A stretch of 64,000 nucleotides of DNA. Source: an uncultured bacterium (GTDB taxonomy: Bacteria > Hydrothermota > UBA3073 > NMUJ01 > CBEVQO01). Positions 17,876 to 36,004 of the stretch are shown piece by piece. Location of the stretch: positions 320,001-384,000 of the forward strand of contig CBEVQO010000002.1 in NCBI GenBank assembly GCA_965552055.1. Direction: 5' to 3'. Every line of letters begins with the position of its first letter. Position 1 is the first letter of the stretch. The position numbers and the translations under genes are program-made. The notes beneath the pieces were generated by a model. The model saw only the letters and a list, made by a program, of their open reading frames with translations. It was not told the DNA's origin and did not search any database.

Positions 17876-18424
17876 TTATAAAAGTGCGATAATCATTTGC
17901 ACTATTCCTACGAAAAAGCCGATAACTCCACCCATCAGAATTATGAAGCGTATCTCCCTGCCTGATGCCGTGAATACGAGTTTCTCAAGTTCTTCGAGAT
18001 TAAAACTCCTTATTTTATCCTCAACTATTTTGCCGAAGTCAACAGCAGATAGAGCTTTTTCGAGGAAACCGCGCTCAAGAGCACCTTCGATTGCCGCTTT
18101 TAAAACGGGTCTTATCATACTTAATATAATTCTATTGATTTTAAACTCCTTTTCAATTAATTCAATTATTGCGTTTACTGCTTTATCAACTCCTCCTTTT
18201 TCCGTTATCCATTTTTTAATGGTTTCGGTATCGAGCAAGTGCTTTTTTATAACATCACCTACTTTCTGGGCGACATCATCTTTGTATTTGGGAAGGAGGC
18301 CCTGAATCGTGAAAAACAGTATTTTACGGGGCTTTCTCGGTCTGAAAAGCATAATGATGGCAATCTTATTCGTAATCCACCCGATAAATGCACCAATAAA
18401 AGGCATCAGAAATTTGATAATCAT
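17876..18424 (-). CDS. DUF445 (YheB-like) membrane protein
   Basis: IGAFIGWITNKIAIIMLFRP...GLLPK; C-terminal IILMGGVIGFFVG. Confidence 0.88.
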   Translation of the reverse strand: MIIKFLMPFIGAFIGWITNKIAIIMLFRPRKPRKILFFTIQGLLPKYKDDVAQKVGDVIKKHLLDTETIKKWITEKGGVDKAVNAIIELIEKEFKINRIILSMIRPVLKAAIEGALERGFLEKALSAVDFGKIVEDKIRSFNLEELEKLVFTASGREIRFIILMGGVIGFFVGIVQMIIALL

Positions 18425-18428
18425 AACA

Positions 18429-19079
18429 TTACTCCTTTTTCTCTTCGCTCAACCTTTTAATTACACACATTAAAATAATCAATCCTTTTATCAATTTTTC
18501 TCTCATCTTTTTCCTCTGGAAATATCTAATAATTATCTCTAATGGTGACGGAGGAAACGGTAAAAGAGGAATAGGGCGAGGAAAAGGAGGAAGAGGAAAA
18601 GGATATTTTTTAATAGTTAATAATGTAATTAATGCAAGCAAATCTTTCGGACTCAAAGAGGGGATTTTTTCCTTTAATTTTTGCATCAATTTTTCTTTGT
18701 CTTCCTCATCGATTTTTGCTTTCTTCAATTCTTCTGCTAATTTTTCTCTTTCTTCGGGGCTTAAATGGTGTACTATTTCGAGTAAAACTTTTTCTGCTAT
18801 ATTCATTTCTGTTTCTTTTAGAGAGAGTTTCTTTTCGGCATTCCATTCATCTGCAATTTTTTCTATAATTTCTGCTTCTTTTTCTTTATATTTTTCTAAT
18901 GGAATATTTTTCTCACCTGTTAGCCATTCCCAAAGCATCAATCTCAATCCGGTTGGTGTGTATCTTTCTTTTAGTTTCTCAACTTTCACTTTAAATTCGT
19001 CCTCCGTACTCGCTCCCTGTATAAGTGCCAATAAAAACGCCAACTCCTCCCTTGACATTTTTAAAATCTCTTCATACAT
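18429..19079 (-). CDS. YaaW/UPF0174-like protein
   Basis: Pattern E.NIAEKVLLE..HHLSPEEREKLAEEL resembles YaaW family; Pro-rich segment near C-terminus. Confidence 0.45.
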   Translation of the reverse strand: MYEEILKMSREELAFLLALIQGASTEDEFKVKVEKLKERYTPTGLRLMLWEWLTGEKNIPLEKYKEKEAEIIEKIADEWNAEKKLSLKETEMNIAEKVLLEIVHHLSPEEREKLAEELKKAKIDEEDKEKLMQKLKEKIPSLSPKDLLALITLLTIKKYPFPLPPFPRPIPLLPFPPSPLEIIIRYFQRKKMREKLIKGLIILMCVIKRLSEEKKE

Positions 19080-20043
19080 TTTCCCCTCCTCCTGTTATTA
19101 AAACTTTATACTCCTCCCAATCACTTACATGTTTACCTGGCCAGAAAATTGATATATTATATAAAACTTTGTCACCTTCATATAAAGTAATTTCGTCAAA
19201 GGAAACGCTTAGTTCATAAAATAATCTCCACAATTCGCATTGTAACATGTTGGTACCAAGTATCTCCTCCCAAACTGGTTTTTGCAAATAAAGGCCACAA
19301 AGACCTTCTGCAAGTGCCATCATCACATTTACTTTATCTTCGGATAAGAAAAATGCACCTTTATGGAAGTTTATCAACCCGAGAAATTCTCTGAATTGCT
19401 GACGAATTAAAGAATCTTTTACTATTGAATTCCCTCTTATTTCTTTATAATTGGTAGGCATCTGTCCAAACACCATAACCGACATGCCTGTAAATTTTTC
19501 TTCCTGTGAAGTGTCCAGTTCTATAACTTCCTGTAATGCCCTTCTTCCTATTCTGCTTCTGTATAATGGTCTGCCTTCTATTCTGTGAACTTCTGCTGCA
19601 AATTCTTCGATCTCTGCCATAGCGATTTTAGGTATTATTATGAGTATCCAGTTGGGGTATCTCGATTTCATAAAAGCTTTGCTTAGCACAGATGAATATG
19701 TGCAACTTAAAAGAATATTAGTGTCAAATCCCAAGATTATATCGTCATAAGATTTAAGACGCTCGACTACTTCTTCGAAATTACCGTAATTAACTGCCCC
19801 GCATCTTAATAAAGCATCTCTCAATGCATCTTTTATCGACTTTTGTTTTTTCGCTTCTTTTATTTTATCAACTTCAGATAATACTTCAAACACATATCCT
19901 CTATTTTTTGAGTAAAATACCTTTAGCAATTCCATCTCCTTTTCGCATCCCCATTCTTTACATTTACTCTTAATCACAATCTCATTTGTCTCTATAAGTT
20001 TTCTAAATTCTTCCTCATATTTCTTAATAGTTTCCACTTTCAT
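19072..20043 (-). CDS. PIN-domain protein (putative RNase) with N-terminal extension
   Basis: LGFDTN, IIPKIAMAEI, KDSLI, LSEDK..MMALAEG: acidic PIN residues in the expected order. Confidence 0.8.
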   Translation of the reverse strand: MKVETIKKYEEEFRKLIETNEIVIKSKCKEWGCEKEMELLKVFYSKNRGYVFEVLSEVDKIKEAKKQKSIKDALRDALLRCGAVNYGNFEEVVERLKSYDDIILGFDTNILLSCTYSSVLSKAFMKSRYPNWILIIIPKIAMAEIEEFAAEVHRIEGRPLYRSRIGRRALQEVIELDTSQEEKFTGMSVMVFGQMPTNYKEIRGNSIVKDSLIRQQFREFLGLINFHKGAFFLSEDKVNVMMALAEGLCGLYLQKPVWEEILGTNMLQCELWRLFYELSVSFDEITLYEGDKVLYNISIFWPGKHVSDWEEYKVLITGGGENV

Positions 20044-20060
20044 CTACCCTCCTTTTTTCT

Positions 20061-20285
20061 TTATTGAGTTAATTTTATCCAAACTTCGGGTAACTGTACT
20101 TTTACCCATTCACCTTTTTTATCAATTATACGCACTTTAACCCCAGCGGATAAGAGGCCGATAATTTTACTTTCTTGATAGGGTTCTTTCCTCATCAGTA
20201 TTTCCTTATCCGTAACTATATATTTCTTTCTGCACCCTAAAATACTTATTGCAAAAAACGCCATTAAAATTACACACTTCCTCAT
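20061..20285 (-). CDS. SH3b-domain lipoprotein
   Basis: Lipobox ILGC; MRKEP..ESKIIGLL..G.KV.II.KKGEWVKV. Confidence 0.75.
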   Translation of the reverse strand: MRKCVILMAFFAISILGCRKKYIVTDKEILMRKEPYQESKIIGLLSAGVKVRIIDKKGEWVKVQLPEVWIKLTQ

Positions 20286-20297
20286 TTCATCCTCCCT

Positions 20298-22754
20298 TCA
20301 CAAATTTTTACTCTCAATTATCTTTTTTATTTCTTTTACAAATCTTTTCTTATCAGAATATAAACACTCTTCCATTGTCTCCCATATTTTTGCATTTTCT
20401 TTATCAATCTGCTTATAATACGATAAATAAAGTTTAAGCCCTTCCTTAGGAGTTTTTCTCGTAATTTCTCTATAAATCTTTTCAATTTTATTCACAATAG
20501 AAGGATTTATGTAATAAAATGTACTTTCTTCTATTGGAAATCCTTCAAATTGTTTAATTTCTATTTCTTTTTCTAAAATAGATGAATCGTTTAAGTCATA
20601 AGCAACAACCTTAAATATATTTTTCCCTAATTTTAATTGCAATGAAAGAATTAAGTCTATTTCTTTTTTATCAAACATTTTTCTTATCAATAAACTATCG
20701 TCCCAATAAAATTTTACTTGTTTAACCAAAGTATCGTCTTTCACTTTTACTTTTACTTTAATTATGCTATCACAAATTACATTTGGAATTTTAATGCTAA
20801 TTTTAGGCAATGTGACATCATTATAAAACTTAAAAGTTTTACTCATAAAGCCTTTATCAGTTTTCAATACCCATTTTATTGATATTTGATTTAGCATGGG
20901 ATTAAGGTAATGTCTGGTTAATATGAGAGGTAAACTTGTAGTTGAAAGAACGCGGTCATTTATTTTTACAATTAATTTTTTAATATGTCTCCTGTGTGAG
21001 CAATCAATCACCACTCTGTCTTCTTTCTTCTTTATTATAGGCTCTATTCTTGTAATTTTCAAAGAGTATACTCTCTCATTTCCGTATTTATCTAAAGCAA
21101 TGAGATTTACTCTCGAGATTTTTTCTTCTTGTAATTTATCGGTTAATAAAAAGAAATCTTCCTTTAGTTTTTTACTACTTATTTCTCTTTTAATTATTCT
21201 CTCATAAGAAGTATTCGGAGTAAAAACCGAACATTTTACAGTTGAAAGCATTGCATTATCCTCCACATAATATGATAACAATAAACTATCATTAATTATT
21301 TTATAATCCGCCATTTTAATTACCGGGGGCAATAAATCAATATATTTTTCAAAATCTTTAACCCACTTCCCTCTCCCTTTAAACAGAAGTAATTTTAATT
21401 TAAGGGTAGTTGCTAATGGTTTATTGATATAAATTGTCAGCTTATTTTTAGTACAATGATATTTATAAGGTATTTTACTCCTTATTTTAAGCGAGTCACA
21501 CTCACATTTTATCTGGATTTTGTTTCTCTTTTGCATTAATGCTAAATTTGGTTCTGACAATTCTATTTCTTCCCTTCTCACATTATTTGCTTTATCAAAT
21601 GCTATCAAATAAAGTTTTTCGTTTTCTCCTATTGGTAATGTTTTTTCTCCGCTCGCATCTATTTCATAAGTATTATCAGTTTTTAGAAAAACGCTGGATA
21701 TCGAAAAATTATCCTCTACTTTCCATTTGATTTTTATTTTGTCTCTTTTTATTTCATAAGAATAAAATATTTTGGGCGGGTTCTTATCCCATAATATTAC
21801 CTTTTCCTTTTCATAAGTTAAACCTTCTTTCAAGAATACTCTTAATTTAATTTTATGTTTTCCTTCTTTCGAAATAAATTTTTCTAAATTTAACTTTATT
21901 GAGGGAGATTTAGTTACCAGAACCGAGCGTCCATCAATAAAAAGAATTGCTTTTTTAAAAGGAAAGTTAGTCAATACTTTTACTTTAAATTTTGAAGCTC
22001 GGGGACCCCATTCCCTTCTTTCCGGAAATTCTATTTTTGCAATATTTTTTGTAACTGTAAGAGAATATTCTTTGTAAAAATCACTGAATGCCAAGATATA
22101 ATTATAATTACCGCTGGGTAAAATAAATTTCTCGGTTGAGAAAATACCATCTTCTTTTAATCCATCATTATGTTTTCCGTCATCATATAAAATGATTTGC
22201 TTATTAAGAGCTGGAATTATACATTTACCTACTGTATCTCTTATCCGGGTAGTGTACACCATCAGTTTTAATGTATCTTTTAATGCGTACCTTTCAGTAG
22301 CAATCTTATATTTAGTATTAAGTATCTTGATACCTTTAATGCGAGGTCCGAACATCCGTTTAGTTATATAAACTCCTGAAATAAAGGAAAATAAAAGTAA
22401 AAATGGAAGAGAGAGAATAATTGTTTTTACCACTTTTAATTGCTTCGTTATTTCTCCGATTATTTCAAAAATTTTTGTCTTTAAATTCTCCACAAAGTTA
22501 TTTACTTTTTCTTCAGTATTTTTCATCGAATAACTTAAATTTTCATTAAAATCGGTCAATATTTGTGAAATCTTTCTTTTGAGTTCTTCGTTCAATGCTC
22601 TAGTTATTTCCGGAAAAACTTCTCGTTTAAGCATTTCTTCTTTTAATTTGCAGACGATCGCCACTACCTGATCCACTAAAACTCTATCCCAGAATTCTTT
22701 TAATATCTCTTCTGTCTTCTTTTTTAATAATTCAAAAATTTCATCCCTTTTCAT
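20298..22754 (-). CDS. large single-pass membrane protein with Ig-like repeats and choice-of-anchor X-like motif
   Basis: N-terminal helical region; TM IILSLPFLLLFSFISGVYI; LYDDGKHNDGLKEDGIFS; repeated D..PP.I / A.DK.GN Ig-like ends. Confidence 0.7.
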   Translation of the reverse strand: MKRDEIFELLKKKTEEILKEFWDRVLVDQVVAIVCKLKEEMLKREVFPEITRALNEELKRKISQILTDFNENLSYSMKNTEEKVNNFVENLKTKIFEIIGEITKQLKVVKTIILSLPFLLLFSFISGVYITKRMFGPRIKGIKILNTKYKIATERYALKDTLKLMVYTTRIRDTVGKCIIPALNKQIILYDDGKHNDGLKEDGIFSTEKFILPSGNYNYILAFSDFYKEYSLTVTKNIAKIEFPERREWGPRASKFKVKVLTNFPFKKAILFIDGRSVLVTKSPSIKLNLEKFISKEGKHKIKLRVFLKEGLTYEKEKVILWDKNPPKIFYSYEIKRDKIKIKWKVEDNFSISSVFLKTDNTYEIDASGEKTLPIGENEKLYLIAFDKANNVRREEIELSEPNLALMQKRNKIQIKCECDSLKIRSKIPYKYHCTKNKLTIYINKPLATTLKLKLLLFKGRGKWVKDFEKYIDLLPPVIKMADYKIINDSLLLSYYVEDNAMLSTVKCSVFTPNTSYERIIKREISSKKLKEDFFLLTDKLQEEKISRVNLIALDKYGNERVYSLKITRIEPIIKKKEDRVVIDCSHRRHIKKLIVKINDRVLSTTSLPLILTRHYLNPMLNQISIKWVLKTDKGFMSKTFKFYNDVTLPKISIKIPNVICDSIIKVKVKVKDDTLVKQVKFYWDDSLLIRKMFDKKEIDLILSLQLKLGKNIFKVVAYDLNDSSILEKEIEIKQFEGFPIEESTFYYINPSIVNKIEKIYREITRKTPKEGLKLYLSYYKQIDKENAKIWETMEECLYSDKKRFVKEIKKIIESKNL

Positions 22755-24834
22755 GATATTTCCTCCTTATTTTCCTTATTTTTTCTATTTTTCTACTACA
22801 AAATTCCACTTTTTTATTCTCTTCGTTTATTCTTCTAATGAGTAATTCTTTTTCTCTATTTATTTCTTCCTCAGTTCTTTCTAAATCCTTTCTCAAAGTA
22901 TCTATTTGAGAATCAATTTCTTTAATTTTTCTTTTTGTTTCTTCCTTTATTTCTTTCTTGATTTCTTCACAGATTTTTTTACTTTTCTTTTTTACTTCAT
23001 CTTCATCAAATTGTTCATTAAATTTTTCAAATATCTCTTGTACTATTGATTTAGCATCTCTTTTTGCCCTTCGCCAATAGCAGAGACATTTAGCCGTAAA
23101 TGGTTCAGTCCAATCTTCTCTTTTATAGCCCCAGTATTCTGAATCTTTATTATCGATTTTCATTTTACACCAATTTACATAAGGCTCCAATTGCATTAAT
23201 CTAAATTTATTTATAATCTTACGCAAAACATTATTATTTTTTATTTTCATCTTACAATAATTCCTCAATTCTTCTCTCTTCTCTTCTAATAAATAACGCA
23301 AATCATTATCAAAATAATTTTTTACTTTTTTGTATTTTTTAATACCTAAAATGGTCTCGCCGGGTTCACATCTAATCTCTATGTCTTCCAAAACATCTTC
23401 ACATTCGCTTTCTATTTTTTGTTTCATCATGTTTATAGTATCTACGGCTTCCTTTTTATCTTTTTCAACTTTCTCTAATTTTATTCTTTCTTTTTCTTTA
23501 ATTATTCTTTTCATCTCCTCCAATCTACTTATTTCTGCTCTTAACCTTTCTTCCCTCTGGGTCTTTTCTTCTTCGAGCGCTTCTTTTCTTTTTTGCAAAC
23601 TTTCCATCATTTGACGATGATGTTCTTCTTTTTCTTTTAATTTTTCGAGCACTTCTTGAACTATTCCTAAAAGAGGTTCTTTGATCAAAGGTTCGTGCTT
23701 TTTCTCTAAATGAGATTTCAAATCGGATACAAATTTTTCCCATTCTTTGTCCTCTTTTCCTTCTTTTACATTTTTCACTGAGACAAAATAAACTTTTGAA
23801 ATTTTATAATCTTTTAACCATTTAAGTACAAATTCTCTTATTTCTTTTATTGCCTTCTCTCCTCCTTCTGAATATGGAATGTCTTTTTTGTTAATCACAA
23901 AAAATACCCTCTCATTCATTTCTTCTTTTCTATCAATAGTTGGTTTTATCAAATTTAAAATACAATCGAGTATTTCTTTTACATTTTTATTAAAACCTCC
24001 TTTTTGTCCTGGTGCCACGATTATAAAAGCATCACTTTTTATTATTTGGTCTACAGCTATTCCCGTATGTCTTTTTATTAGCGAATGAGTACCTGGAGTA
24101 TCAACTACTTCCACATCTTTCAAAATATCGAAAGGATATTTTACCTCCACTCTATTTATCAAAAAACCATACAAAATATCATCATAAGTTTTATATTTCT
24201 CAACTTTGGTCAGTAACTTTGATTCTATTGCCTTCATTTTTTCATAATCAAAATAAACTTTTACATTTTGTGGATATTTATCAGTAAACTCTTTTAAAAT
24301 TTCCATCTTCTGCTCCTCTTGTAACTTTTTGGAATATTCATATATTTTTTCTTTTATTTCATCCATGTAATTTTTCAGTTGTTGAGAGGAAATTTTTTCT
24401 TTTGTTTGTTCATTTTGAGCATATTTTATTAACCCATCATTTATAAACATTGTCAATGCTTTTATTGATTCATTTTCGGGAATTATCTTAACTCTTTTTT
24501 CATCTATTTCAGTTTTATATAATGTAAAACTTTGTTCTTTTTCAAAATATATTTTTTTCTCTTTTTGCCCGTAATGCACAAAAGTCACAGCACAAGTAGT
24601 AGGAGTAGGTCCTTCTGGTAACATGTCTTCTTTCAATAAACAATTTAGCAGAGAAGATTTTCCAGCCGAAAAAGGTCCTGTTACAGTAATATAATATTTC
24701 TCTTCTTCTATTTTCTTCTTCACCTCATCTATTCGCCTTAAAAGTAAAGGCAAGGGAATATCCTCTATCTCGTTTTTAATCTTCGTAAGCAGATTCTTTG
24801 CACGCATTTTACTTTCATGATGTAATGTTTTCAT
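22741..24834 (-). CDS. bacterial dynamin-like GTPase (4th in operon)
   Basis: G1 GPFSAGKSS, G2 PTT, G3 DTPG, G4 NKKD; long coiled-coil C-terminus; ATG24834 after AGGAGG. Confidence 0.88.
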   Translation of the reverse strand: MKTLHHESKMRAKNLLTKIKNEIEDIPLPLLLRRIDEVKKKIEEEKYYITVTGPFSAGKSSLLNCLLKEDMLPEGPTPTTCAVTFVHYGQKEKKIYFEKEQSFTLYKTEIDEKRVKIIPENESIKALTMFINDGLIKYAQNEQTKEKISSQQLKNYMDEIKEKIYEYSKKLQEEQKMEILKEFTDKYPQNVKVYFDYEKMKAIESKLLTKVEKYKTYDDILYGFLINRVEVKYPFDILKDVEVVDTPGTHSLIKRHTGIAVDQIIKSDAFIIVAPGQKGGFNKNVKEILDCILNLIKPTIDRKEEMNERVFFVINKKDIPYSEGGEKAIKEIREFVLKWLKDYKISKVYFVSVKNVKEGKEDKEWEKFVSDLKSHLEKKHEPLIKEPLLGIVQEVLEKLKEKEEHHRQMMESLQKRKEALEEEKTQREERLRAEISRLEEMKRIIKEKERIKLEKVEKDKKEAVDTINMMKQKIESECEDVLEDIEIRCEPGETILGIKKYKKVKNYFDNDLRYLLEEKREELRNYCKMKIKNNNVLRKIINKFRLMQLEPYVNWCKMKIDNKDSEYWGYKREDWTEPFTAKCLCYWRRAKRDAKSIVQEIFEKFNEQFDEDEVKKKSKKICEEIKKEIKEETKRKIKEIDSQIDTLRKDLERTEEEINREKELLIRRINEENKKVEFCSRKIEKIRKIRRKYHEKG

Positions 24835-25702
24835 TTTCACCTCCTTTTAACATCTCCATTCCTTTTAGTAAAAACCATAATGTAAAAACTTCTCCTAATG
24901 TATCAATCTCGTTCTTTACTTTATTCAAAATCCTTCTGATTTTGTCCAAATAAAATGCCGAACATTTCTCCAAAATTATTTTTAACACATCGTTCACATT
25001 AGTATGAGAGAACTTAACTATGTCCTTTTTACTGCAATTAAAATCTTTGAGGATTTGCTCCCTCGTCAATCGCACAAACTCATCCTTCCTTTCACTTTTT
25101 TCGTAATTTATTGCAAAGATAACTTCTTTGTTTACCCCAATTTTTATTTCTTCCACATTTTGACAGAAAAACGCATAATCTTCTCCCTCCTGGTGTATTA
25201 CTAAATTAATTAAATTAATGTCGGGACTAGTTTTAGAAACAAATTCCGGTATTTTATTCACATATTTTTCCCAATTTTTCTGTATTTCATCCTCTGCACT
25301 CCCCCAGCCCGGTGTGTCAATAAACCGGCAAATTAATAAAAGAGGATGATTATATTCTATCTCAGCATAAATAATTTTATTTACTTCATTCTGTGCCTTT
25401 TGATAAGATGCTACTTTTTGCCATTTCTTTTTATCATATATTGTTTTTTCATCACCATTCTCATACTTTATAAAAGCCCTAAAAGATTCTCCGTACTTCA
25501 CTAAAGTGAAAAAATAAGAAGTAGAAGTAAATCCCATAGGTACCAAATGTTCTGATTCTTTCGTTATATCAATATCTAGAAGTTTATTGATAAGTAAAGA
25601 TTTCCCCGCTTTATCACTCCCCCATATACCAAAAATTAATTCCGGCTCATCACTGCATAAGATCTGTTTTTTTACAAAAATTAAGTCCTCTAACTTTAAC
25701 AT
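24815..25702 (-). CDS. short, divergent dynamin-like GTPase (3rd)
   Basis: G1 GSDKAGKS, G3 DTPG, G4 degenerate (NYEK); little stalk. Confidence 0.78.
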   Translation of the reverse strand: MLKLEDLIFVKKQILCSDEPELIFGIWGSDKAGKSLLINKLLDIDITKESEHLVPMGFTSTSYFFTLVKYGESFRAFIKYENGDEKTIYDKKKWQKVASYQKAQNEVNKIIYAEIEYNHPLLLICRFIDTPGWGSAEDEIQKNWEKYVNKIPEFVSKTSPDINLINLVIHQEGEDYAFFCQNVEEIKIGVNKEVIFAINYEKSERKDEFVRLTREQILKDFNCSKKDIVKFSHTNVNDVLKIILEKCSAFYLDKIRRILNKVKNEIDTLGEVFTLWFLLKGMEMLKGGENENITS

Positions 25703-27261
25703 TTTATTTCTTCCTTTATTCTTTTAATCTCTTCTTTTATCTCTAATATTTCCTCATATTTTCTTTTTACATTTTCTAATTCTTTTTGATATTTATTTGC
25801 ATCAATTTTTGCATTTATTTGCTGTATATATTTATTTATTGCTTCTTGAAGATGCTCTTTTATCGCTTCCTGTGTCTCTTCGCATAAAGTATCAAGAATT
25901 TCATTAACCTTATTTTTGATACTACGCTTTTCCACTTCTTTTAGTACATTTTTCAAAATTTGACCGGTATATTTAAATACTCTCTTAAAAAATATCTTCC
26001 AGTTTTTTATTTTATCCATCTCCTCGGATCTTATCTTTTGCCCCGAAGATTTTTTCGAAAATTTCTTTACCAACTTTTCGGCTAATTTCTCCGAAATAGA
26101 GTCTAGTATCTCTTCTACTTTTTGATTTATTTTTTCTTTCCATTCCTCAGGCAAATTTTCAAAAATTTCTTCTATTTTAGAAATAACAGGCACAGGTAAT
26201 TTACCTTCCTCTTCTTTTGTTTCTATCTCTATTGGCATAATATCTATATTTTGCAATATACAAAACTTTTTAACTACTTCTTTAATTCTTTCACTAAATT
26301 TTGTCTCGAAATTCTGAAGCCATTCCTCGGGATATAAATTTTCATTTATCTCCAATTCACGCTCAAAATTTATTTTTCCTTCTTTTATTATACTTTTCAC
26401 TTCTATTAATACTCCTTCAAGCATATTTTGTAGCAAATGCATTCTCTTTTCCAGAGCAGATTTTACTCTCTTAACTCTTTCTGCTTCTTTTTCGCTTTCT
26501 TTCAATTTTTCTTCAATTTTTTTGAAGGTCTTATCGGCTAATTTTTCGATATTATTAATAAAAGTCTTCAAATGTGTTTGAGAGCCTTTTTGCTCTAAAA
26601 AATGCTCTAAATATTCTAAAAATCCTCCATCGATTTTATTCTTACCCGAAGTGAAAAACACGGGGAATTCCATACCCAAGTTTTTCTTAAAATTCGCAAA
26701 AAACTGCAAAAACTCCATTTTTGCTTCTTCTTTCACCTCGTCGATTTTATTCACAATTACAGCAAAATCTTTATTTTTTAAGTTCTTAATAAATTCTTTA
26801 ATTAAACCTGTCATAGGCTGTGAAGCTCTGGTAAAAACTGCAACAAAGTCAGCATATTTTACAAAAGAATTGGTAATTTCTGAAAGTTCTTTCTTTAAGG
26901 ATTTTAAACCTGGGGAGTCCACCCAGTAAATAGGGGGTAAATCCTCTTTCTTACATTCTAACGCATAAATATAATGTGAATTTAGAATCTTATTTAACTT
27001 TTGCGTCTTACCTTTATTTTTTATGAGTATAATCTTTTCAGTAGTGGGTAGCACATCTACTCTTAAATTCAGTTCAAAAAGAGAGTTCAAAAATGTGGTC
27101 TTGCCTGTGTTAAATTCTCCAGCAAACATTAGGATAAAAGGCTCCTGTAAAACTTCTTTTAACTTTTCGATTTCTTCTTTCTCATCGCAGTATTTCTGTA
27201 ACCTATCTGCCAAAGATTTACTTCTTTCTAATAAATTCATATAATTTTTCATCTCAAACAT
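25696..27261 (-). CDS. bacterial dynamin-like GTPase (2nd)
   Basis: GEFNTGKTT, PTT, DSPG, NKID; start moved to ATG27261 after GGAGG. Confidence 0.88.
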   Translation of the reverse strand: MFEMKNYMNLLERSKSLADRLQKYCDEKEEIEKLKEVLQEPFILMFAGEFNTGKTTFLNSLFELNLRVDVLPTTEKIILIKNKGKTQKLNKILNSHYIYALECKKEDLPPIYWVDSPGLKSLKKELSEITNSFVKYADFVAVFTRASQPMTGLIKEFIKNLKNKDFAVIVNKIDEVKEEAKMEFLQFFANFKKNLGMEFPVFFTSGKNKIDGGFLEYLEHFLEQKGSQTHLKTFINNIEKLADKTFKKIEEKLKESEKEAERVKRVKSALEKRMHLLQNMLEGVLIEVKSIIKEGKINFERELEINENLYPEEWLQNFETKFSERIKEVVKKFCILQNIDIMPIEIETKEEEGKLPVPVISKIEEIFENLPEEWKEKINQKVEEILDSISEKLAEKLVKKFSKKSSGQKIRSEEMDKIKNWKIFFKRVFKYTGQILKNVLKEVEKRSIKNKVNEILDTLCEETQEAIKEHLQEAINKYIQQINAKIDANKYQKELENVKRKYEEILEIKEEIKRIKEEIKC

Positions 27262-29015
27262 TGCTCCTCCTCTTTTATAACATCCATTGTCCTTCTTGTT
27301 AATTTTCTCAACTCTGTCCATTTATCCTTATTTTCTTCCAATTCTATTATTTTCTTATCTATCCCTTTTATTTTTTCGAGCATTTTGTCCTTTATCTTTT
27401 CAAAAGCTTCTCCAAAAACTTTTTTAAACTCCTCACACACTTTTTCTTCTGTCCTCTTAAACGCAATTTTCATTTCCGTATAAAGTTTGCTTTTCAATTC
27501 AACAAGTTTTCTTCTAAGAGTAAGAGAACCTAATATTATAATAATTATATCATCGATTGGACCAGGAATAAATTGAGCGATTACCAAAAGTATACTAATT
27601 ATGCCTATTTTTTGCCATATATCGTTAATAACATCAGCAATCATATTTTTTATTTCCTCTGGAGCTATTTCAGGTTTAATCTTTACCGGCAAACGCTCTA
27701 ACAAAGCGATTGTGAACTCCGATTCCATTAATTCTTTCACTTCTTTTTGTATTTTGTCCTGTATTTTTTCTACTTCGTGTTTTGTTTTTTCTTTTACTCT
27801 TTTCATCACTTCCTCTTTTAACTTATCTTTCTTCCTAAAATAGCTACTTATCTTACCTGTTATTCTCTCTATTTCGTTATACGATACCTCAAAATACAGC
27901 TCTCTCAGTTTCTTTATCTCATTTGAAATTATAAACTCAATTTTCTCTTCTATTCTTCTTTTTGCAGGATAGAGAGTTTCTTTTATATATTCATTTTCTA
28001 AACTTTTACGCTCATATAATTTTTCTAATTCACCTTTAATTTGTTCAATTTCTTTTACACAGATTTTATTCAATTTATTCAATTCTTTTTCCATTCCACC
28101 TAAAATTGATTTTATCTTTTGCGCTCTTAAACCTTTCACATTATCAAAAAACTCTTCTCGTAAGAATTTTATTAACGATAGGTATCCCCATCTATCTAAT
28201 TCTTTTTCATCAAAGCCATTTTTTAATATTTCTTTTACTTTCTTTGCGGAGTATAAAAATACTCTATTTTTCACCATCTCTTTACTAAAATTCACACTTA
28301 TCCAATCTTTTATTTTTTCGATATTTTCCTGTGATTCTTCTTGATCAATTTTGTTAATCACCCCCACAATACTTTTGCTGTATTCTTTTAACTCCTCTAT
28401 CAATGACTTTTCTATTTCCGAACCCGCTTGAGTAGCATCAAATATCCATATAGCAGCATTTACTTTCGGTAAATATTCATATACCACTTTATCGTCTAAT
28501 TCATAAGGAGAGTTAAATCCGGGAGTATTGACCATCACAAGATTTGTTAATTCTTTGCAGGGTAAAAATAACTTAATTATAGTTTCTTCTCTTTTTATCT
28601 TGTCCTCTTGATGTTTTATGTATTCCCATAAACTTTTTAAATCCTCTTTTTCATTTATTGCTATCTCCTTCTTTTTTGTTCCCATTAAAATCTCCGCTTT
28701 TATGTGTTCTCCATAATGTAATTCAGTAATAACTGCATCTGTCGGAGTAAATCCCTCTGGTAGTAATTGGTCTTCAATTAGAATGTGGTCAATTGCCTCA
28801 TTAGCTATTAACACCGAATTTATAAAAGTAGATTTCCCGCTCTTAGTTTCCCCAATTACCGCTAATCTAAATGGCTCTTCCACAACCTTTTTATATTTTT
28901 GCAAGTTCGAAAGCACCACGGGAATGAATGAATCAAGATTCTTGAATTTATCTGCCTCTTCAATAAAATTATCTATTGCACTAATTACTGCATTTTGTTT
29001 TATATCTGCAATCAT
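27249..29015 (-). CDS. bacterial dynamin-like GTPase (1st) with hydrophobic membrane segment
   Basis: GETKSGKST, PTD, NTPG (G3 D>N), NKID; IGIISILLVIAQFIPGPIDDIIIIILG. Confidence 0.88.
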   Translation of the reverse strand: MIADIKQNAVISAIDNFIEEADKFKNLDSFIPVVLSNLQKYKKVVEEPFRLAVIGETKSGKSTFINSVLIANEAIDHILIEDQLLPEGFTPTDAVITELHYGEHIKAEILMGTKKKEIAINEKEDLKSLWEYIKHQEDKIKREETIIKLFLPCKELTNLVMVNTPGFNSPYELDDKVVYEYLPKVNAAIWIFDATQAGSEIEKSLIEELKEYSKSIVGVINKIDQEESQENIEKIKDWISVNFSKEMVKNRVFLYSAKKVKEILKNGFDEKELDRWGYLSLIKFLREEFFDNVKGLRAQKIKSILGGMEKELNKLNKICVKEIEQIKGELEKLYERKSLENEYIKETLYPAKRRIEEKIEFIISNEIKKLRELYFEVSYNEIERITGKISSYFRKKDKLKEEVMKRVKEKTKHEVEKIQDKIQKEVKELMESEFTIALLERLPVKIKPEIAPEEIKNMIADVINDIWQKIGIISILLVIAQFIPGPIDDIIIIILGSLTLRRKLVELKSKLYTEMKIAFKRTEEKVCEEFKKVFGEAFEKIKDKMLEKIKGIDKKIIELEENKDKWTELRKLTRRTMDVIKEEEQCLR

Positions 29016-29191
29016 TTCCCCTCCTTTTCTATATCTTTTAAGATTTTATCTATTGTTTCGGCTACAATTTGCTTAATATTTTCAAAAGTTTTATTTAATT
29101 TTTCATCTGTGGTCTCGATGCAAAAATTTCTTAACTCTTTCAGTGAATCAATTAACCATTTTGTTTCCTTGTATAGTTTCTCCCTAAACAT
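29012..29191 (-). CDS. small helical hypothetical protein (59 aa, not in ORF track)
   Basis: MFREKLYKETKWLIDSLKELRNFCIETTDEKLNKTFENIKQIVAETIDKILKDIEKEGK*; ATGA overlap with the first dynamin. Confidence 0.7.
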   Translation of the reverse strand: MFREKLYKETKWLIDSLKELRNFCIETTDEKLNKTFENIKQIVAETIDKILKDIEKEGK

Positions 29192-29198
29192 GTTTATT

Positions 29199-29420
29199 TT
29201 ATTCTATTCCTAGCCATCTAAATGGGCAAATTTTACAAACGATAATCCTTAAAAACCACGGCACAGGACAATTCATGCACGGATGAATAATGCCCTTTTT
29301 CGTCTCACCTCCTTCCTTTTTTATCACTTTTTCATCGTGAAGTTTATTTATTTCTTTCTCATATGCGTCTAAATTCCATTTATCAGTTATATTTTTAACT
29401 ATTTCAAATCTTTCTCTCAT
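29199..29420 (-). CDS. small protein with two CxxC motifs
   Basis: PCMNCPVPWFLRIIVCKICPF; ATGA-coupled to the upstream 80-aa gene. Confidence 0.65.
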   Translation of the reverse strand: MRERFEIVKNITDKWNLDAYEKEINKLHDEKVIKKEGGETKKGIIHPCMNCPVPWFLRIIVCKICPFRWLGIE

Positions 29421-29659
29421 TTCCCCTCCTTTTCTGCTTCTTTTTCTAATTGTTCTGCTATTGTGCGCAGGGCTTCTGCTCCTGCTTTTAAGCCTGCTTT
29501 CTTCCAGAAGTCCGCTTTTTGGTAGCGTGATTTGCCATCCTTATCTTCCTGTGTGCCTTCTTCCATAAAATCTTTTACAAACCTTGCCATCACTTTACTT
29601 GCGAATTCCTCCCAGAATTCCTGTCTCTTCCAGAAAGGTACTTTTTCCTTTTCACTCAT
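29417..29659 (-). CDS. 80-aa hypothetical protein, copy A
   Basis: Strong RBS; near-identical to copies at 30256-30498 and 31331-31582. Confidence 0.8.
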   Translation of the reverse strand: MSEKEKVPFWKRQEFWEEFASKVMARFVKDFMEEGTQEDKDGKSRYQKADFWKKAGLKAGAEALRTIAEQLEKEAEKEGK

Positions 29660-29676
29660 ATCCCCCTCCTTATTAA

Positions 29677-29703
29677 AACTTAAATGAGTTACAGCAATGT
29701 CAA
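29677..29703 (-). promoter_or_regulatory. internal sigma70-type promoter upstream of copy A and the dynamin genes (TTGACA-N15-TAAGTT)
   Basis: Read directly; spacer nearly identical to that upstream of the sigma gene. Confidence 0.55.
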
Positions 29704-29820
29704 CAAATATATTCTAAAAGTTTGCTTTGGACCGATTAAATTAAATAAAGGAGCAAGTATTTTATAATACCAAGGAATAGGCAATCTAGGAATTCCTTTA
29801 ACAGTAATCGGCTTACTCAT
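29689..29820 (-). CDS. 43-aa hydrophobic micro-protein (not in ORF track)
   Basis: GGAGGTG RBS then MSKPITVKGIPRLPIPWYYKILAPLFNLIGPKQTFRIYLLTLL*. Confidence 0.6.
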   Translation of the reverse strand: MSKPITVKGIPRLPIPWYYKILAPLFNLIGPKQTFRIYLLTLL

Positions 29821-29830
29821 ATGCACCTCC

Positions 29831-30259
29831 TTATAACCCATATTCTGATGGATTTAATCTCCTTTTCTCACAATATCTTTTTAAATCTTTCTGTACAAGT
29901 TTAATGCAAAGCGCAATTACAGTAGCATCGTCGAGATACCCTATGACAGGAATAAAATCAGGAACAATATCCCAGGGATTGATGAAATATATTAAAGCTG
30001 CAGCAACAGCTGCAATAGTATACCACGGAACATCAAAATCGCCTTTGAAAGAATCTCTTAACATTTCGTATAAGAGCCTTATTTGCATCCCAAGTTTTAC
30101 CAACCAATCTATTGCTGAATCTAGCAAGCCTGCCTTTTCGAGTTTCTTAGGAGTCGCCTCAATTGCGTATTTTACATCTTCTTTGTCAACATTTTCCCTT
30201 GCTTTGTTATACATTGCTTCTATTTTTTTCTTCTGTTCATCGGTTAATCTTTCTCTCAT
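29831..30259 (-). CDS. YkvA/DUF1232 family membrane protein
   Basis: AALIYFINPWDIVPDFIPVIGYLDD. Confidence 0.92.
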   Translation of the reverse strand: MRERLTDEQKKKIEAMYNKARENVDKEDVKYAIEATPKKLEKAGLLDSAIDWLVKLGMQIRLLYEMLRDSFKGDFDVPWYTIAAVAAALIYFINPWDIVPDFIPVIGYLDDATVIALCIKLVQKDLKRYCEKRRLNPSEYGL

Positions 30260-30498
30260 TTCCCCTCCTTTTCTGCTTCTTTTTCTAATTGTTCTGCTAT
30301 TGTGCGCAGGGCTTCTGCTCCTGCTTTTAAGCCTGCTTTCTTCCAGAAGTCCGCTTTTTGGTAGCGTGATTTGCCATCCTTATCTTCCTGTGTGCCTTCT
30401 TCCATAAAATCTTTTACAAACCTTGCCATCACTTTACTTGCGAATTCCTCCCAGAATTCCTGTCTCTTCCAGAAAGGTACTTTTTCCTTTTCACCCAT
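30256..30498 (-). CDS. 80-aa hypothetical protein, copy B
   Basis: Identical to copy A except residue 2. Confidence 0.8.
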   Translation of the reverse strand: MGEKEKVPFWKRQEFWEEFASKVMARFVKDFMEEGTQEDKDGKSRYQKADFWKKAGLKAGAEALRTIAEQLEKEAEKEGK

Positions 30499-30507
30499 AT
30501 CCCCTCC

Positions 30508-31344
30508 TTATGGCATCCAATGGTTTATTTCCCCAGAATTTATAAATTTTTGTAAAATCTCTATCCTTTTTGCAGAAGGAGGATGATCTGATTTTATCCG
30601 CTCCCACCACGATAGATGCTTTTCATACATCCCCATTTTTGAAAGACAGCTTATAGCATATTCAGGAGGAATACCCGCTTCTTGCATCAGTTTTACTGCA
30701 CATTTATCTGCACTCACTTCTCTATCTCTTTGCCTCTTTTGTCTTATTAAAGGAACTTTATCAAGCCAGCTATATATCTCAAAATGTCCCAAAATCATAT
30801 GAGAAATTTCGTGGCTCATTATAAATATTATTTCATTTAAATCCAAATATTTAAAAGAAGCAGGGGTGATTGCAATCTCGCCTATAAAAGCTGCCCCAAA
30901 CTGCTGCGGCTTTACACATGCATTTATAGCGTAATTCATATACTCCACAGGAGTACAGCCTGCTTGCATTGCTTCTTCTATAATCTCATTTTGATAGTAG
31001 GGACGCACTCTTACAAGATGCCAGTCTATATTTGAATGCTTCATTTTAATTGTTTGTGCCAGAGGCAAATAAAATATTTCATTCGCTATTTTATTTAATG
31101 CAATCAAACGTTTACTCCAGACATCTGACCAGCGCTTTAACTGCAACAGCGCAAGTACGATTATAGCAATATTTACAAATAATTGCCATTTGTGAAAGTA
31201 TTTGAAATTAAAATAAATACCTGTAAGGAGAAGTGCTCCTGTGAGTAATTTTTTAACTTTTGCTGTCACATCATATTCTCTTAATAAACCCACAAGGGTT
31301 AAAATTGCAACAGCACAATAAAGTCCAATCTTAACGGCGTTCAT
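30508..31344 (-). CDS. M48-family membrane zinc metallopeptidase
   Basis: Three N-terminal TM segments; HEISH, E..AD and HPP...RI motifs. Confidence 0.85.
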   Translation of the reverse strand: MNAVKIGLYCAVAILTLVGLLREYDVTAKVKKLLTGALLLTGIYFNFKYFHKWQLFVNIAIIVLALLQLKRWSDVWSKRLIALNKIANEIFYLPLAQTIKMKHSNIDWHLVRVRPYYQNEIIEEAMQAGCTPVEYMNYAINACVKPQQFGAAFIGEIAITPASFKYLDLNEIIFIMSHEISHMILGHFEIYSWLDKVPLIRQKRQRDREVSADKCAVKLMQEAGIPPEYAISCLSKMGMYEKHLSWWERIKSDHPPSAKRIEILQKFINSGEINHWMP

Positions 31345-31582
31345 CCTTTTCCTCCTCTGCTTCTTTTTCTAATTGTTCTGCTATTGTGCGCAGGGCTTCT
31401 GCTCCTGCTTTTAAGCCTGCTTTCTTCCAGAAGTCCGCTTTTTGGTAGCGTGATTTGCCATCCTTATCTTCCTGTGTGCCTTCTTCCATAAAATCTTTTA
31501 CAAACCTTGCCATCACCCTGCCTGCGAATTCCTCCCAGAATTCCTGCCTCTTCCAGAAAGGTACTTTTTCCTTTTCACCCAT
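31331..31582 (-). CDS. hypothetical protein, copy C of the 80-aa family (83 aa)
   Basis: Same sequence with SK>GR and an altered C-terminus; ATG31582 after an RBS. Confidence 0.8.
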   Translation of the reverse strand: MGEKEKVPFWKRQEFWEEFAGRVMARFVKDFMEEGTQEDKDGKSRYQKADFWKKAGLKAGAEALRTIAEQLEKEAEEEKDERR

Positions 31583-31596
31583 ATCCCCCTCTTTCA

Positions 31597-34901: not shown

Positions 34902-35307
34902 CTATTTCCTCTTTATTGATGATTTTAACTTTGTATATTCCTTTTTGCAGTGCGGTAAAAGTGACTCTTCCCGATTTTGATGTTTCCTTCTCGATTTTTT
35001 CTTTTTTGCTCTCAAATATCACATTTATCCCTTCAACTCCCTTTCCTTCCTTTTCTACGGCGATCTCAACATTTATCCCTTTTTCTCCATGAATTGCCCT
35101 GCATATTATTGAATAACCTTTTTTCTCACGGACGATTTCGAACTCAGGCTTTATTTCTATCTCCTGACCTTTCACTTTTATTTTCTTAACACCTTTTTTA
35201 AGAACATCTGACAAAATTAAAATTTCTTTCTCTGCCTTTTTCTTCAAAATTTCAAATCTTTTTAATTCCTTTAAAAATTCAAAATCGTTATATTCTTTGT
35301 CTCCCAT
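34876..35307 (-). CDS. hypothetical protein with C-terminal beta-sandwich (carboxypeptidase-regulatory-like); candidate anti-sigma factor
   Basis: TSKSGRVTFTALQKGIYKVKI; overlaps both the sigma and CHAT genes. Confidence 0.6.
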   Translation of the reverse strand: MGDKEYNDFEFLKELKRFEILKKKAEKEILILSDVLKKGVKKIKVKGQEIEIKPEFEIVREKKGYSIICRAIHGEKGINVEIAVEKEGKGVEGINVIFESKKEKIEKETSKSGRVTFTALQKGIYKVKIINKEEIDEFKIKIE

Positions 35308-35998
35308 ATAACCTTTCCTCTATCCTTTTGCGTAAGCGACTGCGAATCCTCGAATACCTCTGATTCAATGTATTCAAAGGAATATTCAATGCCCTTGCTA
35401 ATTTTTTTCTATCAACCTTAGGCACATCAGCAATTATTTCAATCAGTTTTCCTTTATCATAACTTTTAGAAACTTCTTCCAAATCTTCTTTATTTATAAA
35501 TTCTGTTGCATTTGAGCATGCCAGAAATATAAATCTATCCAGTGGTGAAAGTTCTTCTATTGCTTCCAGTATTGCCCTTTTCATTTCCTCTTTTTCAATA
35601 TCTTTTTGAATGTCTCCCGGGTCGGGTATCAACTCTTCTTCTATTTCTTTAAATTGCCTTTCTTCTATTTTCTTCTGCAAATTGCATCTTTTAAAATCGC
35701 ACCATAAGGAAAGAAGTACCATTTCACAATAAGTTTTTATATCACTTTTATTTTCGTCAAATCCTTTGAATTTTTTATTAAGATGATCCGCACAATAAAT
35801 ATAAAAGTTTTGTCCAATATCCTCGATTTCATCCATAGTAAAGTAAATTTTCAAATGTGGTATCTGATAATAGAAAAAGTTCTGCATTATCAGCTTATAG
35901 GACAACTTTGAGGATATGAATTCCTGATAGGCATCATCGTCTCCATTTTTAATGCGCTTCACAAGAGAAAGGAGCTCATACCACTTTTCCTTTCTCAT
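35288..35998 (-). CDS. ECF-like RNA polymerase sigma factor
   Basis: LVKRIKNGDDDAYQEF and DEIEDIGQN (region 2); AIEELSPLDR...KLARALNIPLNTLNQRYSRIRSRLRK (region 4 HTH with insertion). Confidence 0.82.
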   Translation of the reverse strand: MRKEKWYELLSLVKRIKNGDDDAYQEFISSKLSYKLIMQNFFYYQIPHLKIYFTMDEIEDIGQNFYIYCADHLNKKFKGFDENKSDIKTYCEMVLLSLWCDFKRCNLQKKIEERQFKEIEEELIPDPGDIQKDIEKEEMKRAILEAIEELSPLDRFIFLACSNATEFINKEDLEEVSKSYDKGKLIEIIADVPKVDRKKLARALNIPLNTLNQRYSRIRSRLRKRIEERLYGRQRI

Positions 35999-36004
35999 CA
36001 AAAT

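What the first reader, a model, noticed from the sequence alone, without database searches (positions are those of the whole stretch)
22741..29015. Four tandem, mutually divergent dynamin-like GTPases, two with altered G motifs
Seen: four overlapping ORFs, each with G1 and G3. No. 1 has NTPG instead of DTPG and the only clear hydrophobic paddle. No. 3 is 295 aa with NYEK at G4. Nos. 2 and 4 are canonical but lack an obvious TM. Known: bacterial dynamin-like proteins mostly occur as pairs or fusions. Inference: a hetero-oligomer with divided labour (membrane anchor or pseudo-GTPase plus active subunits).
Basis: partly seen in the sequence, partly recalled or inferred. Interest (0 to 1): 0.7.

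Follow-up and report, generated by a model that had tools for sequence, protein, structure and literature searches.

The report
Four-gene dynamin cluster with split double-GTPase
An uncultured bacterium seen in hydrothermal-vent samples carries four real, overlapping dynamin-like GTPase genes that likely build a membrane-guarding machine, in which the predicted membrane-binding subunit is likely catalytically crippled and the last two genes are likely the separated halves of an unstudied two-headed dynamin that other bacteria encode as one gene.

Summary
Four overlapping minus-strand ORFs carry dynamin-type G domains, and contigs of other strains keep every junction, so this is no frameshift. 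ORF1 folds like BDLP/IniA/mitofusin and has the only paddle-like segment. It is likely a hydrolysis-poor anchor. ORF3 lacks a trunk and the G4 Asp. ORF3+ORF4 likely are the split form of a fused double-G protein found in 85 of 162 genomes of one Bacillota order, whose first head shares ORF3's HQxG motif and G4 loss (22 of 22). So there are four G domains but probably three ancestral units. None is an Eleos or DynA member by score. The cluster is low-GC, was not found in close relatives, and lies among sigma/TPR-CHAT, M48, DUF1232, PIN and DUF445 genes; membrane repair or phage defence is inferred. A single hetero-oligomer is untested. New variant of a known kind; interest 0.5.

The parts
27249..29015 (-). 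ORF1, 588-aa BDLP/mitofusin-class protein with G domain, neck, trunk and hydrophobic paddle (about 462-495); G2 Thr->Asp93 and G3 Asp->Asn163; predicted hydrolysis-poor membrane anchor
28737..28739 (-).
   Evidence: T/S in 238 of 239 other G domains; covered by X1 contig 28189-29011, whose single difference lies at 28465
28527..28529 (-). ORF1 codon 163: Asn at the G3 aspartate (NTPG)
   Evidence: D in 239 of 239 others; covered by X1 and X3 contigs
25696..27261 (-). ORF2, 521-aa DLP with intact G1-G4, short G domain, no TM, basic/aromatic tip at 421-435
   Evidence: no homologue at E<=1e-3; best relatives in same-phylum G089 and G085
24815..25702 (-). ORF3, 295-aa trunkless G domain with G4 NYEK and HQEG motif; likely the N-terminal head of a split double-G protein
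25097..25108 (-). ORF3 G4 codons 199-202 (NYEK; guanine-specifying Asp absent)
   Evidence: covered by X3 contig 24822-25172
22741..24834 (-). ORF4, 697-aa DLP with intact motifs, about 100-aa insertion between G1 and G3, own ribosome-binding site inside ORF3; likely the C-terminal half of the split double-G protein
20298..22754 (-). 818-aa single-pass membrane protein (about 110-aa helical N-terminus, one TM, choice-of-anchor-X/Ig-like extracellular part); overlaps ORF4 by 14 nt
   Evidence: Atlas score 0.76, a lead only
20061..20285 (-). 74-aa lipoprotein-like ORF with SH3_3 domain
19072..20043 (-). 323-aa PIN-domain protein
18429..19079 (-). 216-aa helical protein of no family (weak JukA hit, 2e-4)
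17876..18424 (-). DUF445 membrane protein, last gene before the hydrogenase genes
29012..29191 (-). 59-aa helical ORF overlapping the ORF1 start; its last 28 nt resemble the ends of the 80-aa repeats
29407..31588 (-). Upstream cassette: three copies of a 259-nt repeat (80-aa ORF) flanking DUF1232 (29831-30259) and an M48 peptidase (30508-31344)
32604..36001 (-). TPR-CHAT protease (32604-34901), 143-aa ORF (34876-35307) and ECF-type sigma factor (35288-36001); candidate regulators, link to the DLPs inferred

Best explanation
The four ORFs are real, overlapping dynamin-family GTPase genes that likely build one membrane-guarding complex from three ancestral units: a predicted hydrolysis-poor membrane anchor (ORF1), a motif-intact partner (ORF2), and a likely split two-headed dynamin (ORF3 plus ORF4) whose trunkless first head is predicted not to recognise guanine. 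Shown: four intact frames, the motif changes, ORF1's paddle, and the junctions kept in other strains. Predicted (AF2, pLDDT 78): ORF1's BDLP fold. Inferred, about 0.75: ORF3 and ORF4 descend from one fused gene. Inferred, about 0.7: ORF1 binds lipid and perhaps GTP but hydrolyses poorly. Inferred from the Campylobacter pair and DynA, about 0.5: ORF1 inserts its paddle in the inner membrane, ORF2 and ORF4 dock through G-G and helical contacts and supply turnover, and ORF3 is a non-catalytic cap or adaptor on ORF4. Inferred from context, about 0.5: the complex tethers or seals damaged membrane under envelope stress or phage lysis.
For: Not an artefact: an X2 contig spans 22684-25974 with 50 substitutions and only 12 inserted nt (in frame, near 23090, inside ORF4); X1 contigs cross ORF3/4, ORF2/3 and ORF1/2 without gaps. 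Class: Dynamin_N; the ORF1 model matches BDLP (Foldseek E 9e-16), IniA (Z 23.8) and mitofusins (Z 22.4, rmsd 4.0 over 329 residues) above Era/EF-Tu (Z 16.9). ORF1: G2 T/S in 238 of 239 and G3 D in 239 of 239 other G domains, against D and N here. G2 and G3 bind Mg2+ and the gamma-phosphate (PMC5827413, passage), and dynamin T65D mainly affects kcat (PMC3323523, passage). Split gene: ORF3's hits P0077, P0082 and P0091 are double-G proteins with G1 at 29-30 and 372. With profiles of their halves ORF3 scores best on the N half (63 bits against 36/28/18) and ORF4, which took no part in finding them, best on the C half (93 against 28/19/13). In 22 family members HQRG is in 22 (ORF3 HQEG; 2 of 236 other rows, both one protein), Cys four before G3 in 19 (ORF3 yes; 2 of 236), and first-head G4 lacks Asp in 22. 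Family-minus-generic score puts ORF3 first (N half) and ORF4 first (C half) after the three family rows among 133 test rows; the careful tree joins ORF3 to the N halves at 90/87. Mechanism precedent: the Campylobacter pair needs heterotypic G-dimers for turnover (PMC6104087, passages); only DynA D1 binds membrane (PMC4159319, Discussion). Context: GC 28-31% against 38-40% in flanking housekeeping genes; no match in the 20 other genomes of its class and in 11 of 271 of its phylum. Related neighbours: sigma, TPR-CHAT, DUF697 and M48 before two DLPs in L085; DUF445, DUF1232 and M48 around an Eleos pair in G249.
Against: On raw score ORF3 ranks only 200 of 243 against the family N-half profile, below ordinary DLPs. 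Its tree position is unstarred and on a long branch, and the family was first found with ORF3 as query. ORF4 groups with family C halves and DynA halves alike (86/88). Of 17 family members measured, 14 have only 127-140 residues after the second G4, so most lack a trunk, unlike ORF4 (383). The family gene stands alone in all 24 loci (22 of about 5 kb, 2 of 20 kb), so it needs no ORF1/ORF2 next door. Monophyly of the four ORFs is not rejected (AU p 0.31, 36 rows). In Eleos both P-loops are needed for defence (bioRxiv 2022.05.11.491447, passage), which sits badly with a dead anchor. Selection on ORF3 is weak: 5 synonymous of 7 seen changes, P 0.047, from a partial list. Accessory co-occurrence is modest and seed-biased: M48 in 5 of 80 loci, 2 of them seeds.
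Confidence: 0.5

Rival explanations
1. Two independent modules share one accreted operon: an ordinary anchor-plus-partner pair (ORF1+ORF2) and a split two-headed GTPase (ORF3+ORF4) that works separately, perhaps with the 818-aa membrane protein.
For: The fused family stands alone in 24 of 24 loci. The operon shows repeated insertions upstream. Strain variation clusters in the ORF4 C-terminus and the N-terminus of the 818-aa protein. Partners differ between related loci.
Against: Tight 7-20 nt overlaps across all four genes. Same-phylum G089 shows the same order of types: paddle DLP, 519-aa no-paddle DLP (ORF2's best hit), then a trunkless-G plus G fusion, though its first head is a recent local copy and not ORF3's orthologue.
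Confidence: 0.3
2. The odd motifs are rewired, not dead: ORF1's Asp at G2 replaces the carboxylate lost at G3 and keeps Mg-dependent hydrolysis, and ORF3 (like the family's first head) binds another nucleotide such as ATP.
For: ORF1's two changes are complementary in charge and its P-loop Lys and G4 are intact. The family's first head keeps G1 and G3 but has an invariant Asp-free G4 (NCNL type) and HQRG in 22 of 22, which looks like a kept function. That the dynamin-fold EHD proteins are ATPases appears in entry titles.
Against: No such swap among 239 other G domains. T65D lowers kcat in dynamin. ORF1 and ORF3 also lost the hydrophobic third G1 residue kept in 239 of 239 (G1 counts are biased by the search pattern).
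Confidence: 0.2
3. Decay: a duplicated DLP set is eroding; ORF3 is a truncated remnant and ORF1 a drifting copy, and only ORF2 and ORF4 work.
For: Long end branches. ORF3 is more degenerate than the family heads at G1 and G2. Split or shortened DLPs of similar size occur in L037 (280 aa plus a 333-aa ORF) and L110 (358 aa).
Against: No stops or frameshifts in strains up to 2% apart. ORF3 changes are mostly synonymous. ORF3's length, G4 loss and HQxG match a conserved family. ORF4 has its own ribosome-binding site.
Confidence: 0.1
4. Assembly artefact: ORF3 and ORF4 (or ORF2 and ORF3) are one gene broken by a sequencing error.
For: Relatives encode ORF3-like and ORF4-like halves in one gene.
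Against: Contigs from runs of three coded studies keep the junctions without indels. A 98%-identical 694-aa ORF4 is a separate protein on another 25-kb contig. ORF3 lacks about 24 residues of the linker spacing (320 against 338-344).
Confidence: 0.02

Closest known systems
Bacillus subtilis DynA (fused D1-D2; PMC8844932 passages, PMC4159319 Discussion)
   Same: Two G domains in tandem; ORF4 resembles D2 (long G-domain insertion, no TM); one membrane-binding and one non-binding unit; delays phage lysis.
   Different: Here there are four G domains in four genes. The head before the D2-like unit has no trunk and no G4 Asp. The NCBIfam DynA model scores 88 bits against a cut-off of 1600. DynA needs GTP at both heads.
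Campylobacter jejuni DLP1/DLP2 pair (PDB 5owv; PMC6104087 passages)
   Same: ORF4's best PDB sequence hit is DLP1 (E 7e-12); heterotypic activation is the model for the inferred complex.
   Different: ORF4 lacks the N-terminal assembly domain (its residue 30 aligns with DLP1 residue 147). Both Campylobacter P-loops are needed for turnover. Two genes, not four.
Eleos / LeoA-LeoBC (PMC4159319; bioRxiv 10.1101/2022.05.11.491447 passages)
   Same: Tandem DLPs; precedent for a split DLP gene (leoC/leoB); anti-phage role; G249's true Eleos pair has DUF445, DUF1232 and M48 neighbours like this locus.
   Different: PADLOC scores here are 42-50 bits against 228-337 for the LeoA/LeoBC pairs of G249 and G085. 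The Leo split falls inside one G domain; here it falls between two G domains.
Nostoc BDLP, mycobacterial IniA, mitofusins
   Same: Fold of ORF1: G domain, neck, trunk, paddle.
   Different: ORF1 lacks the G2 Thr and G3 Asp.
Uncharacterised fused double-G family of one Bacillota order (P0077, P0082, P0091, L162-L185); not a named family
   Same: Short N-terminus, trunkless first head, HQxG, Cys before G3, Asp-free first G4, long second G domain, no TM.
   Different: One gene standing alone there; two genes beside two other DLPs here. Most members lack a trunk after the second head. Identity to ORF3/ORF4 is only 23-33%.
DO-GTPase/GAP1 conflict systems (PMC7159879 passages)
   Same: Paralogous TRAFAC GTPases in membrane-proximal operons with variable partners.
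   Different: DO-GTPases have Glu in Walker B and a GAP1 partner; these have D/N-x-P-G, dynamin folds and no GAP1 seen; the word dynamin does not occur in that paper's main text.

Membership tests
Bacterial dynamin-like proteins (BDLP/mitofusin class) | Dynamin_N G domain | tested here: met
   ORF1, 2, 4 over the Pfam cut-off; ORF3 25.9 bits, just under 27, but nearest Atlas clusters are Dynamin_N (0.94) and its phmmer hits are DLPs
Bacterial dynamin-like proteins (BDLP/mitofusin class) | Helical neck and trunk with tip paddle (ORF1) | tested here: met
   AF2 model pLDDT 78; BDLP, IniA and mitofusins rank first
Bacterial dynamin-like proteins (BDLP/mitofusin class) | Neck and trunk in ORF2 and ORF4 | tested here: inconclusive
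   351 and 383 residues after G4, typical length; not folded; helical HMMs uninformative
Bacterial dynamin-like proteins (BDLP/mitofusin class) | Trunk in ORF3 | tested here: not met
   97 residues after G4 against a median of 388; no trunk ORF in the other frames
Bacterial dynamin-like proteins (BDLP/mitofusin class) | Canonical G1-G4 (G2 T/S, G3 D, G4 D) | tested here: not met
   Met by ORF2 and ORF4; not met by ORF1 (G2 D, G3 N) or ORF3 (G4 without D)
Bacterial dynamin-like proteins (BDLP/mitofusin class) | GTP turnover, oligomers and membrane remodelling | not testable with these tools
   needs biochemistry
Eleos (LeoA + LeoBC) | Strong match to LeoA and LeoBC profiles | tested here: not met
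   42-50 bits here against 228-337 for pairs in G249 and G085; unrelated DLPs also score 28-78
Eleos (LeoA + LeoBC) | Phage protection needing both P-loops | not testable with these tools
   passage
DynA of Bacillota | Two complete DLPs fused; NCBIfam NF052648 | tested here: not met
   88 bits against cut-off 1600; separate genes; first head trunkless
CrfC/YjdA | NCBIfam NF007368 match | tested here: not met
   14.4 bits against cut-off 1146
Campylobacter DLP1/DLP2 | N-terminal assembly domain on the long-G subunit | tested here: not met
   ORF4 begins about 115 residues into DLP1
DO-GTPase/GAP1 systems | Glu in Walker B | tested here: not met
   NTPG, DSPG, DTPG, DTPG; definition from passages
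Fused double-G family of one Bacillota order (defined here) | First head: HQxG, Cys four before G3, Asp-free G4, no trunk | tested here: met
   ORF3 has all four
Fused double-G family of one Bacillota order (defined here) | Sequence score and tree place inside or beside the family | tested here: inconclusive
   ORF3 raw rank 200 of 243, normalised rank first outside the family, tree 90/87 unstarred; ORF4 first outside the family by raw and normalised score
Fused double-G family of one Bacillota order (defined here) | Both heads in one gene | tested here: not met
   two genes in the window and in strain contigs

The most novel reading that the evidence does not exclude
This is a four-subunit bacterial dynamin machine built on two pseudo-GTPases: a catalytically dead membrane anchor and a trunkless, guanine-blind regulatory head. 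That head is the freed half of an unrecognised two-headed dynamin family carried by about half of one Bacillota order, and it may act as a nucleotide sensor or built-in activator that gates membrane sealing under a CHAT-protease/sigma stress switch.
Probability: 0.25. Interest if true: 0.75.

Novelty: new variant of a known kind. Interest (0 to 1): 0.5.

Why it matters
Why bacterial dynamins come as unlike partners is an open question (PMC4159319 Discussion). A natural set in which the anchor has lost both Mg-site residues, and a regulatory head is a separate 295-aa protein, lets one ask directly whether a partner must hydrolyse GTP or only complete the site. The larger by-product is the fused double-G family in 85 of 162 genomes of one Bacillota order, with an Asp-free first G4 in 22 of 22 members read; I found no paper on it in searches (open-access library only). 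The limits: the window's arrangement is seen in one species, multi-DLP clusters recur, and function is untested.

Tried and rejected
Complex prediction ORF4+ORF3: no answer (score 0.01, mark 0.32); no evidence either way. Single-sequence AF2 of ORF3 failed (pLDDT 34). No RNA holder listed. Runs X5-X8 had small shares; X5 was laid and gave only short chance pieces. The 1-nt deletion at 26166 lies in 31-32-nt pieces of other contigs and was rejected. The AU test on 89 rows did not finish; on 36 rows p 0.31. The idea that ORF1/ORF3 and ORF2/ORF4 are a duplicated LeoBC/LeoA pair was dropped: such weak PADLOC labels attach to any DLP. The idea that the 818-aa protein's N-terminus or the 59-aa ORF supplies ORF3's missing trunk got no support from helical HMMs, which were uninformative even for ORF2. 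The 216-aa ORF has no homologue in 271 other phylum genomes and does not match the 251-aa gene at the like place in G249. No orthologous four-gene locus was found: metagenome scans gave nothing for ORF4 and one near-identical 1.9-kb contig for ORF3, which may share the window's source; viral contigs gave nothing; plasmids gave nothing for ORF2. Promoter and terminator scans were at chance level; no Rfam match. The Pfam search of 40 relatives rang in 34, all at E 1.8e-6 or weaker over short G1 or G3-G4 stretches, which I read as other GTPases without checking each. The fused family was not found in 115 genomes of G272's order. One search repeated the genome set. Supplements of the bioRxiv Eleos paper were not seen and may list larger clusters.

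Full report
Verdict. The four genes are real and dynamin-like. ORF1 looks like a hydrolysis-poor membrane anchor, and ORF3 plus ORF4 look like the split form of a two-headed protein that is one gene elsewhere. Function and complex formation are inferred, not shown.

Setting. The window is G000:C2:320001-384000 of a 2.2-Mb, 97% complete genome. Runs labelled hydrothermal vent metagenome hold it (X1 share 0.79, X3 0.37; laid). A Por secretion tail in the window suggests a diderm of the FCB group (inference). The four ORFs lie in a run of minus-strand genes from about 36650 to 17876. GC is 27.6-31.0% for ORF1-4 and the 818-aa gene, against 37.6-40.3% for six flanking housekeeping genes.

Observation. 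Three of four pass the Dynamin_N cut-off; ORF3 is at 25.9 of 27 bits, and its Atlas neighbours are Dynamin_N clusters (0.94). These four are the only clear DLP genes in the genome; one further weak G3-G4 hit lies on C5. An AF2 model of ORF1 from a 62-row alignment (pLDDT 78) matches BDLP, IniA and mitofusins first.

Artefact test. Contigs of four runs from three coded studies were laid on 20000-30500. One X2 contig covers 22684-25974 with 50 substitutions and 12 inserted nt in frame inside ORF4; it crosses the ORF2/3 and ORF3/4 junctions. X1 contigs cross ORF3/4 (23744-25010, 18 substitutions, no gap), ORF2/3 and ORF1/2. X1 and X3 are both 2018 vent runs and may be one campaign. ORF4 has a GGAGGTG site before its ATG, and a 98%-identical 694-aa copy exists as its own protein. 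In ORF3, 5 of 6 listed changes are synonymous (one search listed 40 of 149 places). With one more change from L161 it is 5 of 7, P 0.047 against a 0.34 neutral share: weak support for selection.

Motif census. I aligned 243 G domains (4 window, 239 others; redundant and DynA-rich; G1 biased by the search pattern). G2 is T or S in 238 of 239, G3 is D in 239 of 239, and G4 ends in D in 235 of 239. ORF1 has Asp93 at G2 and Asn163 at G3, both covered by an X1 contig whose only difference lies elsewhere. G2 and G3 serve Mg2+ and gamma-phosphate binding (PMC5827413, passage); dynamin T65D mainly affects kcat (PMC3323523, passage). ORF3 lacks the G4 Asp. Three of the four exceptions at G4 were ORF3's own hits P0077, P0082 and P0091.

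The split gene. Those three proteins (985, 960, 760 aa; 32-46% identical to each other; one named Clostridiales bacterium) have two G domains, with G1 at 29-30 and 372. ORF3 fits the first half and ORF4 the second (63 and 93 bits, next best 36 and 28). A profile of them found 2 of 401 genomes in a Bacillota sample and 85 of 162 in the order of those two. In the 22 members read (20 best hits plus 2), the first head has HQRG in 22, Cys four before G3 in 19, and an Asp-free G4 in 22; G1-to-G1 spacing is 338-344, against 320 for ORF3 and ORF4 end to end. ORF3 has HQEG and the Cys; each feature is in 2 of 236 other rows. Against this: ORF3's raw score on the N-half profile ranks 200 of 243. After subtracting a generic DLP score it ranks first outside the family, as does ORF4 for the C half. 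The careful tree of 45 rows joins ORF3 to the N halves at 90/87, unstarred, and ORF4 to the C halves and DynA at 86/88. Most members have no trunk after the second head (14 of 17 measured), none has a hydrophobic window above 1.5, and no second DLP lies in 24 loci. I put the split-gene reading at about 0.75.

How unusual is the cluster? Among the 80 best of 601 genome loci related to ORF1, 4 hold three DLP genes and none four; many are cut by contig ends. Plasmids of Calditerrivibrio and Lysinibacillus carry annotated triples. In the window's phylum 11 of 271 other genomes match at E<=1e-12, none in its class, with at most four candidates scored per genome. G082 and G109 have triples, and G089 has four adjacent genes with five G domains in a similar order of types. 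Earlier scan notes report three- and four-DLP clusters in other genomes (unchecked). No full orthologous locus was found: ORF1's relatives reach 33% over the G domain and ORF2 had none at E<=1e-3. Whether the four arose by local duplication is unresolved (AU p 0.31).

Neighbours. Upstream lie an ECF sigma factor, a TPR-CHAT protease, M48 and DUF1232; downstream a single-pass surface protein, an SH3 lipoprotein, a PIN protein and DUF445. L085 has sigma, TPR-CHAT, DUF697 and M48 before two DLPs; G249 has DUF445, DUF1232 and M48 around a true Eleos pair. Across the 80 loci M48 occurs in 5 (2 were seeds) and DUF1232 in 3. This suggests a recurring envelope-stress kit, but not a fixed system.

Mechanism. 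Known pairs divide labour: Campylobacter DLP1/2 turn over GTP only as heterotypic G-dimers (PMC6104087, passages); only DynA D1 binds membrane (PMC4159319, Discussion); DynA delays phage lysis and needs its P-loops for it (PMC8844932, passages); Eleos protects against jumbo phages (bioRxiv 2022.05.11.491447, passages). By analogy ORF1 anchors, ORF2 and ORF4 hydrolyse, and ORF3 caps or regulates ORF4, to tether or seal damaged membrane (0.5). Main rivals: two separate modules (0.3), rewired rather than dead sites (0.2, compatible with the others), decay (0.1), artefact (0.02).

Membership and novelty. It works like BDLP pairs and DynA. It fails membership of Eleos (42-50 bits against 228-337), DynA and CrfC and DO-GTPase systems (PMC7159879, passages). 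Papers seen: PMC4159319 first fifth, passages and Discussion; the others passages only; the rest search listings. Searches showed no listing on four-DLP operons or the fused family; several of these searches were noisy and cover open-access text only. Rating: new variant of a known kind, interest 0.5.

Noticed in passing
L162-L185; G323 and G662 order: An uncharacterised fused double-G dynamin-like gene in 85 of 162 genomes of one Bacillota order; first head with HQRG and NCNL-type G4; stands alone. A conserved gene of about 250 aa with no Pfam match lies next to it in three genomes (G323, G662, G928). Worth a study of its own.
   Followed up: partly
L146 (G089:C10:34770-43683); L151, L152 (G085): Same-phylum DLPs carry WD40 propellers, inserted between G2 and G3 (1156-aa and 751-aa genes in G089) or placed before an ORF2-like G domain (G085).
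   Followed up: partly
L149-L150 (G249:C1:130000-152000): Sigma-54 activator, DUF445 and a true LeoBC/LeoA pair, then Cmr-like CRISPR genes (read by eye, not scanned), a GTPase-DUF697, DUF1232 and M48; two more GTPases on the other strand.
   Followed up: partly
window 22446-22683 and near 23090: Strain variation: contigs of X1 and X2 turn unlike at 22445, so the helical N-terminus of the 818-aa protein appears to have a second allele; X2 has a 12-nt in-frame insertion near ORF4 residue 581.
   Followed up: no
window 29407-31588: Three copies of a 259-nt repeat (100%, 100%, 91%) encoding an 80-aa protein; the 59-aa ORF before ORF1 ends in a similar 28 nt.
   Followed up: partly
window 31597-32034 and 34876-35307: A 145-aa and a 143-aa ORF on either side of the TPR-CHAT gene both contain KRFEILKK near their start; candidate anti-sigma or protease substrates. 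The CHAT domain shows HG and ACE motifs (read by eye).
   Followed up: no
window 14690-15340: 216-aa ORF with internal repeats of an EEMREENNRRF-like unit and a C-terminal hydrophobic tail, between the hydrogenase and proS genes.
   Followed up: no
L085:1950-15345: Anoxynatronum locus with sigma, anti-sigma-like gene, TPR-CHAT, DUF697, M48 and two large DLPs: same gene kit as the window with unrelated DLPs.
   Followed up: partly
L037:9947-11787: A DLP split into a 280-aa G domain and a 333-aa trunk ORF; natural split or frameshift not tested.
   Followed up: no
window 55208-56886: Ku and ATP-dependent ligase genes (non-homologous end joining pair).
   Followed up: no
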